The notes: a model not told the origin generated them from the sequence alone. DNA of 54,305 bases from Vulcanimicrobiota bacterium (GCA_019237415.1 JAFAHD010000007.1:1-54305), one strand, 5' to 3'. Counted from the first letter of the stretch, positions 53,542 through 54,305 are shown. Translations and numbers: made by a program.

Positions 53542-53616
53542 GCGGGGCAGGTACGCTCTGGGCACTCGACGTACCTAGGAGACGCGGGGTGGAGCAGTCC
53601 GGTAGCTCGTCGGGCT

Positions 53617-54265
53617 CGAAACAACGCGATCACGGATGAACACGAAACAGCGAGGTGACGTAGCCGAACAGGCAGCGGTGCTCGAGGCACTAAAGCACGG
53701 ATGGAGCGTTCTCCGACCGATAGGGGACCATCTACCGTATGACTTGGTTTTCGACATCAGCGGCCGTCTCGTGAAAGTGCAAGTCAAGTGCGCCTGGTTT
53801 GACCAACCCAGCCAGAATTACGTCGCCGATAATCGGCGAACGAAGACGAATCGGCGGCAGATGGTGAGGGAGCCATATCGGGAATCGGACTTCGATTACG
53901 CGCTTGTGTATCTTCCCGAGAAAAACGTCTTCTACGTCTACCCAGTGAGCGTGTTCATAGGTTTCGGCAGTGAAATTCACATGGTCGAAACCGAAAGGCG
54001 TCAGCGAAAACCCAGATCAGCTGCTTACCGCGACGCTTGGAACTTGATCGCGCCGTGGGCTCCACAGGGAGAGATCTCTGTGGGAACACCTGTCAAATTC
54101 GGGGAAGCCGGTAGCAGGGTAATCCCGAGCCAAGCTTTGTCAGAGCTCCTGATGGAGAAGGTGTAGAGACTTGATGGCAGGCACCCGTCTCTTCGAGAGC
54201 GGGTGAAGGGAAAGTCCAGACTACAAATCCGCTTCACGCGGAGCGGCGAAAGCCGAAGTAGTACG
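53617..54265 (+). mobile_element. ORF-containing group I intron (IC3-like, 649 nt) between U33 and C34 of tRNA-fMet
   Basis: The 5' exon ends in U and the intron ends in G (..GTAGTACG). The 3' about 200 nt carry a P2-like hairpin, CCACAG-N10-CTGTGG. They also carry GTCAAATTCGGGGAAGCC, CCCGAGCCAAGC, GAAGGTGTAGAGACTTGATGG, GTCC and GCGAAAGC. These are the same core strings as in the tRNA-Leu intron at 23486-23703. Confidence 0.85.
53636..54166 (+). CDS. intron-encoded PD-(D/E)XK-type homing-endonuclease-like protein (I-Ssp6803I / PDDEXK_5-like)
   Basis: KQRGDVAEQAAVLEALKHGWSVLRPIGDHLPYDLVFDISGRLVKVQVKCAW matches my recollection of the intron-endonuclease family (G..aE..v...l...G..v..P.gd...yDli.d..g.l.rvQVK). 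G+C is visibly lower than in the surrounding genes. The gene lies wholly inside the intron. Confidence 0.75.
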   Translation: MNTKQRGDVAEQAAVLEALKHGWSVLRPIGDHLPYDLVFDISGRLVKVQVKCAWFDQPSQNYVADNRRTKTNRRQMVREPYRESDFDYALVYLPEKNVFYVYPVSVFIGFGSEIHMVETERRQRKPRSAAYRDAWNLIAPWAPQGEISVGTPVKFGEAGSRVIPSQALSELLMEKV

Positions 54266-54305
54266 CATAACCCGAAGGTCGGTGGTTCAAATCCATCCCC
54301 CGCAA

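What the first reader, a model, noticed from the sequence alone, without database searches (positions are those of the whole stretch)
53583..54305. Initiator tRNA-fMet gene split by a 649-nt group I intron that carries a homing-endonuclease-like ORF
The two half-tRNA segments (53583-53616 and 54266-54305) join into a textbook bacterial initiator tRNA. The C1xA72 mismatch, GGG/CCC anticodon stem, A11:U24 and CAU anticodon are all present. The intervening 649 nt obey group I rules: the exon ends in U, the intron ends in G, and a plausible guide GGCUC at 54058-54062 pairs with exon GGGCU with U-G at the splice site. IC3 core strings are also present. The intron encodes a 176-aa PD-(D/E)XK-like protein. 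The only analogue I know is the Synechocystis PCC 6803 tRNA-fMet intron with I-Ssp6803I. This window otherwise looks like a GC-rich non-photosynthetic heterotroph (no photosynthesis genes seen), so the element is either an unreported lineage distribution or a lateral transfer. If this is the only initiator tRNA copy, all translation initiation in this organism depends on self-splicing. The ORF region has visibly lower G+C than its surroundings, which fits mobility.
Basis: partly seen in the sequence, partly recalled or inferred. Interest (0 to 1): 0.8.

Follow-up and report, generated by a model that had tools for sequence, protein, structure and literature searches.

The report
Self-splicing intron splits initiator tRNA gene
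The gene for the tRNA that starts every protein is interrupted here by a self-splicing, mobile group I intron carrying its own homing endonuclease, but the same element turns out to sit in the initiator tRNA genes of hundreds of bacterial species, so this copy is a new host record and not a new kind of element.

Summary
Window 53583-53616 and 54266-54305 join into a 74-nt initiator tRNA(CAU). The 649 nt between them (53617-54265) are a group I intron. P1 has a U.G pair at the 5' splice site, and P2-P9 are backed by strong covariation across 56 homologues. The intron ends in G. A 176-aa ORF (53636-54166) is 65% identical over 139 residues to I-Ssp6803I, the PD-(D/E)XK homing endonuclease of the Synechocystis tRNA-fMet intron.

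Four independent assemblies carry the same arrangement, which rules out a chimera. The host is most likely an Eremiobacterota bacterium. Related contigs with the same flanking genes have an intronless tRNA-fMet at this site. The endonuclease is under strong purifying selection.

The novelty claim is overstated. The same intron and endonuclease, at the same U33/C34 site, occur in at least 243 species genomes carrying 18 phylum-level labels. NCBI already names the protein "group I intron-associated PD-(D/E)XK endonuclease".

My verdict is a new member of a known kind. The reviews I could read still describe the element as cyanobacterial. Splicing, cleavage and whether this is the only initiator tRNA copy remain untested.

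The parts
53583..53616 (+). tRNA-fMet exon 1 (positions 1-33: acceptor 5' strand, D arm, anticodon stem 5' strand, C32, U33)
   Evidence: Sequence. ARAGORN on the joined exons. Identical in L001-L004.
53617..54265 (+). Group I intron, 649 nt, inserted between U33 and C34 of the tRNA
   Evidence: ARAGORN -i reports a 649-nt intron. RF00028 hit. Intronless orthologous alleles join 53616 to 54266 exactly.
53612..53618 (+). P1, 5' strand (last 5 exon nt plus first 2 intron nt); U53616 is the 5' splice-site U
   Evidence: RNAduplex pairing with 54056-54062, with U53616.G54058. The same pairing is seen in about 70 homologues.
53625..53632 (+). P1 extension, 5' strand (CGCGAUCA); closes the loop that holds the ORF
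   Evidence: Pairs with 54045-54052. Homologues covary, e.g. CGCAAUCAAA/UUUGAUUGCG in L007 and GCAGGAUUAG/CUAAUUCUGC in L017.
53636..54166 (+). Homing-endonuclease ORF, 176 aa including the stop codon. The PD-(D/E)XK domain is residues 1 to about 140 (53636 to about 54055). The tail is encoded by the ribozyme core.
   Evidence: ORF list. Pfam PF11645 E = 3.4e-50. PDB 2OST E = 3.5e-59. AlphaFold2 plus Foldseek. dN/dS 0.05-0.16. Tail residues 145-176 have pLDDT below 50.
54045..54062 (+). P1 extension 3' strand (54045-54052) and internal guide sequence (54056-54062)
54062..54083 (+). P2 hairpin (9 bp, GAGA loop)
   Evidence: RNAalifold. All 9 pairs show compensatory changes.
54089..54181 (+). 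P3 (54089-94 with 54176-81), enclosing J3/4, P4 (54099-104/54123-28), P5 (54107-09/54118-20), P6 (54129-31/54160-62), P6a (54135-41/54151-57) and the P7 5' strand (54166, 54168-71)
   Evidence: P3 has 5 of 6 pairs and P6a 7 of 7 pairs with compensatory changes. P4, P5 and P7 are nearly invariant.
54182..54217 (+). P8 (54182-86 with 54201-05), J8/7 and the P7 3' strand (54213-17)
   Evidence: P8 has 4 of 5 pairs with compensatory changes. P7 is paired in 56 of 56 sequences and invariant.
54221..54265 (+). P9.0 (54221-24/54258-61), P9 (54228-31/54239-42), P9a (54244-47/54252-55, GAAA loop) and the terminal G54265
   Evidence: P9 has 4 of 4 and P9a 3 of 4 pairs with compensatory changes.
54266..54305 (+). 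tRNA-fMet exon 2 (C34 to A73). The window and contig end at A73. In L003 the sequence continues with CCA and a terminator-like hairpin.

Best explanation
This is the initiator tRNA gene of a GC-rich bacterium, most likely an Eremiobacterota. It is interrupted between U33 and C34 by a mobile group I intron of the same lineage as the Synechocystis PCC 6803 tRNA-fMet intron.

Inferred mechanism:
1. The gene is transcribed as a precursor of about 726 nt.
2. The anticodon-stem 5' strand plus the first intron bases pair with the guide sequence at 54056-54062 to form P1, with U53616.G54058 at the splice site.
3. The P3-P9 core folds. An exogenous guanosine bound in P7 attacks the 5' splice site. The terminal G54265 then takes its place and the exons are ligated, giving a normal tRNA-fMet(CAU).
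4. The terminal loop of an extended P1 stem holds a gene for a PD-(D/E)XK homing endonuclease of the I-Ssp6803I type.
5. This enzyme is expected to cut intronless tRNA-fMet genes in the almost invariant anticodon stem-loop DNA. Repair from an intron-bearing copy then spreads the intron (homing).

What is shown here: the anatomy, the fold conservation, homology to the characterised element, purifying selection on the enzyme, and presence/absence polymorphism at the orthologous locus. What is inferred: self-splicing, cleavage activity, and dependence of the cell on splicing.
For: - tRNA identity: the joined exons fold as tRNA-Met(CAT) with initiator features.
- Intron identity: RF00028 E = 1.4e-10. 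The structure with the P3/P7 pseudoknot is 97.3% paired over 56 homologues, against 33-41% for slid controls. The covariation score is 0.442 against at most 0.091, and 0 of 500 shuffles reach the observed values.
- P1 and its extension pair and covary.
- Endonuclease: PF11645 at 170 bits. It is 65% identical to I-Ssp6803I (2OST) over 139 residues, E = 3.5e-59. The structural match has TM 0.85. E11, D36, Q49 and K51 are invariant in 23 homologues. dN/dS is 0.05-0.16.
- Real locus: an identical arrangement is present in 4 other assemblies from NCBI, ENA and JGI.
- Mobility or turnover:
  - Nine metagenome contigs share the upstream genes but carry an intronless tRNA-fMet joined exactly at 53616|54266.
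  - By the flanking gene, the nearest relatives (78% and 75% aa identity) lack the intron, while a more distant one (64%) has it.
  - Intron G+C is 10 points below the host.
- Family context: 81 of 85 fetched loci have the element at the same site, and the 30-bp target is nearly invariant.
Against: - There are no RNA data, so splicing in vivo is not shown.
- The Rfam score is 3.3 bits below the curated gathering score.
- No sigma-70-like promoter was found upstream, and no obvious Shine-Dalgarno sequence precedes the ORF (by eye).
- Synonymous divergence between the Eremiobacterota copies is saturated (dS 1.1-2.0). There is therefore no sign of a recent transfer into this lineage, and current homing activity is not demonstrated.
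- The ORF runs about 110 nt into the ribozyme core, so translating ribosomes would unfold it. How expression and splicing are reconciled is unknown.
- The rest of the genome could not be searched for other tRNA-fMet copies.
Confidence: 0.9

Rival explanations
1. The intron splices, but the element is no longer mobile in this lineage. It has been inherited vertically for a long time, and the endonuclease is kept for another reason, for example as a splicing helper (maturase), or because it destroys intronless copies within the cell.
For: - dS between Eremiobacterota copies is saturated (1.1-2.0), and they form one clade in the endonuclease tree.
- Window, L005 and L008 share upstream synteny.
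- No close relatives occur in viral contigs, phage records or plasmids that could act as vectors.
Against: - Closer relatives by flanking gene lack the intron, so there were gains or losses within the clade.
- Nitrospirota, Chloroflexota and Cyanobacteria are polyphyletic in the endonuclease tree, and an Elusimicrobia copy nests inside the Eremiobacterota group.
- A dN/dS of 0.05-0.16 is what a still-functioning homing enzyme would show.
- No maturase activity is known for this family, to my knowledge.
Confidence: 0.2
2. The interrupted gene is a dead copy. The intron cannot splice, and the cell uses another, intact initiator tRNA gene elsewhere in the genome.
For: - Other copies cannot be excluded, because only 54 kb of the genome is available and no tRNA was found in it.
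- Defective relatives exist: L045 lacks most of P4-P6 and L053 has a truncated ORF.
Against: - Every core helix is intact in the window copy, including the invariant P4, P7 and J8/7 segments.
- The exons retain all initiator features.
- The sequence is identical in several assemblies.
- An active endonuclease would be expected to convert any intronless copy in the same cell (inference).
Confidence: 0.04
3. Assembly artefact: two tRNA halves were brought together by a chimeric metagenomic contig.
For: The contig ends exactly at tRNA position 73, and an independent NCBI contig (L001) breaks at the same base.
Against: - Three other assemblies (L002, L003, L004) read through both exons and the intron into downstream DNA.
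- 81 of 85 related loci show the same architecture.
- The break is explained by two alternative downstream sequences in the population.
Confidence: 0.01

Closest known systems
Synechocystis sp. PCC 6803 tRNA-fMet group I intron with slr0915 / I-Ssp6803I (GenBank U10482; PDB 2OST)
   Same: - Same host gene (initiator tRNA), with the intron in the anticodon loop.
- Nearly the same length: 655 nt against 649 nt (PMC1995217).
- Same endonuclease family: 65% identity over 139 residues, with the same fold.
- In related cyanobacterial copies fetched here (Snowella L070 and L083, Leptolyngbyaceae L019), the insertion site (U33/C34) and the ORF position in the P1 loop are the same.
   Different: - The host is a non-photosynthetic, GC-rich lineage, most likely Eremiobacterota.
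- The ORF is 176 aa against 150 aa, because no in-frame stop occurs after P2. It reads through P2-P6 to the UAG in P7.
- I did not have the Synechocystis intron sequence itself, so RNA-level identity to it was not measured.
ORF-less tRNA-fMet introns of Nostocales and Gloeobacter
   Same: Same insertion site and same ribozyme core. These introns align to the window's first ~12 nt plus 54026-54265, and RF00028 scores are 46.6-55.6 bits.
   Different: They are 243-255 nt with no ORF in the P1 loop. In the 15 Nostocales-type loci fetched, the endonuclease gene stands free about 90 nt downstream of the tRNA.
Azoarcus tRNA-Ile(CAU) and Agrobacterium tRNA-Arg(CCU) group I introns (subgroup IC3)
   Same: These are small group I introns in the anticodon loops of tRNA genes of non-cyanobacterial bacteria (PMC4033280). 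The core strings (GUCAAAUUCGG..., GCCAAGC, GGUGUAGAGACU) resemble the Azoarcus sequence as I recall it.
   Different: They sit in different tRNAs, carry no endonuclease ORF and are about 200 nt long. The IC3 assignment of the window intron rests on resemblance recalled from memory and was not tested against a subgroup model.
[quoted passage not shown]
   Same: [quoted passage not shown]
   Different: Different tRNA and position, ORF-less, and regarded as ancient and vertically inherited (PMC4033280).

Membership tests
Group I intron (Rfam RF00028) | Covariance-model score at or above the curated gathering score (50 bits) | tested here: not met
   46.7 bits, E = 1.4e-10. Accepted cyanobacterial tRNA-fMet introns score 46.6, 48.1, 51.1, 55.6 and 74.4 with the same model, so the threshold splits a single homologous family.
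Group I intron | Conserved P3-P9 core including the P3/P7 pseudoknot, supported by covariation | tested here: met
   58 pairs in 11 helices are 97.3% paired over 56 sequences. 38 pairs have compensatory changes, and slid controls give 33-41%.
Group I intron | P1 formed by the 5' exon end and an internal guide sequence, with U.G at the splice site; the intron ends in G | tested here: met
   53612-53618 pairs with 54056-54062, with U53616.G54058. G54265 precedes exon 2. The same holds in about 70 homologues.
Group I intron | Guanosine-dependent self-splicing | not testable with these tools
   Needs an in vitro transcript with GTP and Mg2+, or RNA-seq.
Subgroup IC3 | Subgroup-specific peripheral architecture (no P5abc, short P2, P9.0/P9 arrangement) | not tested
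   The helices found (P2, P4-P6 without P5abc, P9.0, P9, P9a) are compatible. No subgroup model was available.
I-Ssp6803I-type PD-(D/E)XK homing endonuclease (Pfam PF11645 PDDEXK_5) | Profile match above the curated cut-off, covering the whole domain | tested here: met
   170.1 bits against a cut-off of 26.1. Residues 1-137 match profile positions 1-137 of 138.
I-Ssp6803I-type PD-(D/E)XK homing endonuclease | Same fold as the solved structure, with motif residues conserved | tested here: met
   2OST E = 3.5e-59. Foldseek TM 0.85, rmsd 2.9 A. E11, D36, Q49 and K51 are invariant in 23 homologues. Their catalytic role is from my recollection of the 2OST work and was not re-checked.
I-Ssp6803I-type PD-(D/E)XK homing endonuclease | Cleaves intronless tRNA-fMet DNA near the insertion site | not testable with these tools
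   The target sequence AGCTCGTCGGGCT|CATAACCCGAAGGT is present in intronless relatives. Activity needs an assay.
Bacterial initiator tRNA | CAU anticodon, C1xA72 mismatch, three G:C pairs closing the anticodon stem, A11:U24 | tested here: met
   ARAGORN drawing of the joined exons and the sequence itself. GGG/CCC plus CAU occur in 75 of 75 related loci.

The most novel reading that the evidence does not exclude
The most novel reading not excluded is that the tRNA-fMet intron with its I-Ssp6803I-type endonuclease is not a cyanobacterial curiosity but a pan-bacterial mobile element.

- It occupies one identical site in initiator tRNA genes of genomes carrying 18 phylum-level labels, in at least 243 species genomes, and that count is a lower bound.
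- Its endonuclease is kept under strong purifying selection.
- Its tree disagrees with host taxonomy.

This would make it the clearest case of repeated cross-phylum spread of a bacterial group I intron. The reviews I could read either restrict the element to cyanobacteria or say there is little evidence for horizontal movement of bacterial introns. In hosts such as this one, all translation initiation would then depend on a ribozyme that standard tRNA finders do not see.
Probability: 0.45. Interest if true: 0.55.

Novelty: new member of a known kind. Interest (0 to 1): 0.35.

Why it matters
For this genome, the practical point is annotation. Default ARAGORN, and tRNAscan-SE by its authors' own account, miss the gene, so the organism would look as if it lacked an initiator tRNA. 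Gene callers also fuse exon 1 onto the endonuclease.

Biologically, a cell whose initiator tRNA must be made by a guanosine-dependent ribozyme ties all translation initiation to RNA self-splicing. That is a known situation in some cyanobacteria, now extended to an uncultured, non-photosynthetic phylum.

The wider pattern found on the way is more interesting than this single copy, and it could be turned into a systematic census. That pattern is one intron-endonuclease pair at one universally conserved target across many phyla, with presence/absence polymorphism among close relatives.

Tried and rejected
- **Default detectors:** ARAGORN and Rfam at gathering threshold gave nothing. This was a sensitivity issue, not absence.
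- **NCBIfam:** no family matched the ORF.
- **Vectors for spread:** there is no close relative in IMG/VR viral contigs. GenBank phages hold only relatives of 31% identity or less. PLSDB plasmids gave no match. So there is no evidence for a phage or plasmid carrier.
- **Host naming:** exact look-up of five window proteins to name the host found nothing. Host assignment therefore rests on synteny and similarity to named MAGs.
- **Promoter and terminator scan:** no sigma-70-like promoter was found upstream of the tRNA. The scan also missed the terminator-like hairpin after CCA in L003, which I see only by eye.
- **Timing of acquisition:** I compared dS of the endonuclease with dS of the flanking DUF1028 gene. 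All values are saturated, and the L005 flank ORF was mis-extracted, so no conclusion was drawn.
- **ORF tail:** I considered that the 176-aa length reflects a functional C-terminal extension. I rejected this for three reasons:
  - Stop positions vary across the family. 17 of 56 stop at the P7 UAG and about 25 at a UGA just after P2.
  - The tail's conservation follows the RNA.
  - The tail is predicted to be disordered.
- **Literature:** full-text search failed in 9 of 10 attempts. The 1994 EMBO J paper, the 1997 J Bacteriol paper and the 2007 EMBO J paper could not be opened. Part 2 of the tRNAscan-SE supplement could not be read. Whether the wide distribution has already been published is therefore not settled.

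Full report
**1. What is in the sequence**

Window 53583-53616 (CGCGGGGTGGAGCAGTCCGGTAGCTCGTCGGGCT) and 54266-54305 (CATAACCCGAAGGTCGGTGGTTCAAATCCATCCCCCGCAA) join into 74 nt. ARAGORN folds the joined sequence as tRNA-Met(CAT). The fold shows the unpaired C1/A72 top of the acceptor stem, A11:U24, and three G:C pairs closing the anticodon stem. These are the marks of a bacterial initiator tRNA.

The detectors disagree, and the disagreement is informative:
- On the genomic sequence, default ARAGORN finds no tRNA in the whole window.
- Rfam at gathering thresholds finds nothing either.
- ARAGORN with introns allowed finds a tRNA with a 649-nt intron. It forces the intron to the canonical 37/38 position and so misreads the anticodon.
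The intron therefore lies between U33 and C34.

**2. The intervening sequence is a group I intron**

With permissive thresholds, RF00028 matches 54036-54238 end to end at 46.7 bits, E = 1.4e-10. This is 3.3 bits below the curated cut-off. The same model scores homologous cyanobacterial tRNA-fMet introns at 46.6-74.4 bits, so the shortfall says nothing against this copy.

I aligned the ribozyme parts of 56 homologues (A3). RNAalifold recovered P2, P3, P4, P5, P6, P6a, P8, P9.0, P9 and P9a. I added P7 as a pseudoknot and removed one spurious helix that arose because the P1 5' strand was not in that alignment. On this structure:
- 97.3% of cells form standard pairs, against 33-41% when partners are slid by 1-3 columns.
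- 38 of 58 pairs show changes on both sides.
- The covariation score is 0.442 against at most 0.091 in the slid controls.
- None of 500 shuffles reaches any observed measure.

P4, P5, P6 and P7 are nearly invariant and so uninformative. P2, P3, P6a, P8 and P9 carry the signal.

P1 pairs 53612-53618 with 54056-54062 and places U53616.G54058 at the splice site. An 8-bp extension, 53625-53632 with 54045-54052, closes the loop. The extension covaries across homologues.

ORF-less relatives from Nostocales align to the first dozen intron bases and then to 54026 onward. The ORF therefore occupies the terminal loop of the extended P1.

**3. The ORF**

ORF 53636-54166 encodes 176 aa. The evidence that it is an I-Ssp6803I-type endonuclease is:
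- It matches Pfam PF11645 (PDDEXK_5) over the whole profile, E = 3.4e-50.
- It matches I-Ssp6803I (PDB 2OST) at E = 3.5e-59, with about 65% identity over residues 2-140.
- An AlphaFold2 model built on 23 homologues superposes on 2OST chains A-D with a target-normalised TM-score of 0.81-0.85. The next matches are Holliday-junction resolvases and SPARDA nucleases, far behind.
- E11, D36, Q49 and K51 are invariant in the alignment.
- Between the Eremiobacterota copies, codons 2-130 give dN/dS of 0.05-0.16 with dS of 1.1-2.0. The protein is under strong purifying selection.

The last 30-35 residues are a different matter. They are encoded by P1', P2, J3/4-P4, P6 and J6/7. Their apparent conservation (PVKFGEA..VIPSQA..EKV) mirrors conserved RNA. 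The stop codon is the UAG inside GUAGAGACU. Across 56 family members, 17 stop there, about 25 stop at a UGA just after P2, and the rest stop elsewhere. The model has pLDDT below 50 for residues 145-176. I read the tail as read-through and not as part of the enzyme.

**4. It is a real locus, and whose**

The identical protein is encoded on four other contigs: NCBI GCA_019236575.1, two ENA assemblies and one JGI metagenome. Their upstream flanks are 100% identical, and their introns are 100% identical in three and 99.4% in the fourth (L002). Three of the four read through into downstream DNA. L003 continues with CCA and a terminator-like hairpin. This disposes of a chimera.

The window is an entire contig that stops at A73, and the NCBI contig stops at the same base. 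The reason is visible: the population has two different sequences immediately after A73.

The best relatives of the endonuclease are MAGs labelled Candidatus Eremiobacteraeota, Eremiobacteria or Vulcanimicrobiota, at 82%, 77% and 73% identity. Two of them share the upstream DUF1028 and adenosine-deaminase genes. The host is therefore most likely an Eremiobacterota bacterium.

**5. Evidence bearing on mobility**

- The intron has 55.3% G+C against 65.4% for the rest of the contig.
- A scan of JGI metagenomes for the exact spliced sequence found 25 contigs. Nine of them share the window's upstream genes (66-77% nt identity) and carry an intronless tRNA-fMet at the same place.
- By the flanking DUF1028 protein, the intronless L096 and L098 (78% and 75% identity) are closer to the window than the intron-bearing L008 (64%). 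The clade has therefore seen gain or loss more than once.
- A rough neighbour-joining tree of the endonuclease domain groups the window with the Eremiobacterota copies plus one Elusimicrobia MAG. It splits Nitrospirota, Chloroflexota and Cyanobacteria into several places. The tree is unbootstrapped and MAG labels can be wrong, so this is only suggestive.
- No close relative was found in viral contigs, phage genomes or plasmids.

**6. How common it is**

The protein search returned 1103 clusters at E <= 0.001. The listed ones are 64-88% identical to the query and come from many environments. Source names include "group I intron-associated PD-(D/E)XK endonuclease". Several gene calls carry N-terminal extensions such as AGWSSPVARRA or MEQSGSSSG, which are simply tRNA exon 1 translated.

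Of the 85 loci examined (the 80 kept from that scan, four other contigs carrying the identical element, and the window):
- 81 have both tRNA-fMet exons around the element, with the junction ...GGGCT|CATAACCC.
- There are 53 distinct exon sequences among 75 complete ones, all with GGG/CCC and CAU.
- The 30 bp around the site are almost invariant.

Record titles with both exons confirmed span 18 phylum-level labels: Eremiobacterota, Elusimicrobiota, Chloroflexota, "Deltaproteobacteria", other Proteobacteria, Nitrospirota, Chlamydiota, Planctomycetota, Rhodothermales, Methylomirabilota, Armatimonadota, Acidobacteriota, Actinomycetota, Bacteroidota, Saccharibacteria, Omnitrophota, Auribacterota and Cyanobacteria.

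**7. Comparison with what is known**

The element is the non-cyanobacterial counterpart of the Synechocystis PCC 6803 tRNA-fMet intron. That intron is 655 nt with a 150-aa ORF (PMC1995217). [quoted passage not shown] The locus is noted as "often misannotated" (PMC11622646).

The reviews I could read say the following:
- Group I tRNA introns are listed for cyanobacteria and for alpha- and beta-proteobacteria (PMC4033280, 2014).
- There is "little evidence" for horizontal movement of bacterial introns (PMC3984707, 2014).
- The tRNAscan-SE 2.0 paper reports 36 genomes that seem to lack tRNA-fMet or tRNA-Ile2 because of group I introns. [quoted passage not shown]

That last report is also a precedent for genomes whose only detectable initiator tRNA gene is the interrupted one.

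I could not run a proper literature search because the tool failed repeatedly. I therefore cannot say whether the wide distribution has been published. It is plainly present in public databases and in NCBI's protein naming.

**8. Verdict**

The observation and the structural interpretation are correct. The mechanism is the standard one for a mobile group I intron and is inferred by close homology to a characterised element. The copy itself is a new member of a known kind in a new host phylum. The claim that it is nearly unique is wrong. Three things remain open: splicing and cleavage activity, whether it is the sole initiator tRNA gene, and how an ORF that runs into the catalytic core is expressed without blocking folding.

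Noticed in passing
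L058:1090-1983 (Nostoc linckia NIES-25); also L040, L044, L048, L052, L059, L062, L064, L066, L071, L072, L077, L080, L082, L084: In Nostocales-type cyanobacteria the tRNA-fMet intron at the same site is ORF-less (243-255 nt). An I-Ssp6803I-like gene (160 aa in L058) stands free about 90 nt downstream of the tRNA. Its C-terminal tail (SPVQLKEAG) still resembles the ribozyme-encoded tail of intron-borne copies (TPVKFGEAG). This suggests that it descends from an intron-borne copy. These free-standing genes form one clade.
   Followed up: partly
window 54305 (contig end); L002:1568-1856, L004:1347-1673, L003:1388-1771: The window and an independent NCBI contig both end exactly at tRNA position A73. 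Other assemblies show two different continuations from that base. L003 has CCA plus a terminator-like hairpin. L002 and L004 have ATT..., a terminator-like hairpin, and then a second partial T-arm copy (GTCGGTGGTTCAAATCCACC) about 65 nt downstream. This could be strain-level rearrangement or an old integration scar at the tRNA 3' end.
   Followed up: partly
window 54056-54166: About 110 nt are dual-use. They form P1', P2, P3, P4, P5, P6 and J6/7 of the ribozyme and are also read as codons ~141-176 of the ORF, with the stop codon inside the invariant GUAGAGACU. Across the family, the ORF end switches mainly between this UAG and a UGA just after P2.
   Followed up: yes
window 53583-54305; L002-L005, L008: Default ARAGORN reports no tRNA at any intron-bearing locus but finds the intronless alleles in L096 and L098. 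Gene callers in public data fuse translated exon 1 onto the endonuclease as an N-terminal extension, for example in P0010, P0036, P0041, P0114 and P0119.
   Followed up: yes
L045:1478-2080 (Nitrospirae MAG): This intron is only 602 nt. Compared with its close relative L012, it lacks about 55 nt covering P5, the P4 3' strand, P6 and P6a, while the ORF stays open (...PVKLGEKV*). It is either a splicing-defective copy or an assembly deletion.
   Followed up: no
L053:1478-2136 (Saprospiraceae MAG): The endonuclease ORF is cut short by a stop about 35 codons after the DNRRT motif, while the ribozyme part still aligns. It looks like a decaying endonuclease in a retained intron.
   Followed up: no
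L070:2296-2730 (Snowella MAG): The RNase P RNA gene (RF00010, 238 bits) lies about 120 nt downstream of the intron-containing tRNA-fMet gene.
   Followed up: no
window 52678-53565 (-) and 51671-52681 (-): The upstream neighbours are a DUF1028 protein with a peptidoglycan-binding domain and an adenosine deaminase. This gene pair next to tRNA-fMet is conserved in related intron-bearing and intronless contigs, and it served as the synteny anchor.
   Followed up: partly
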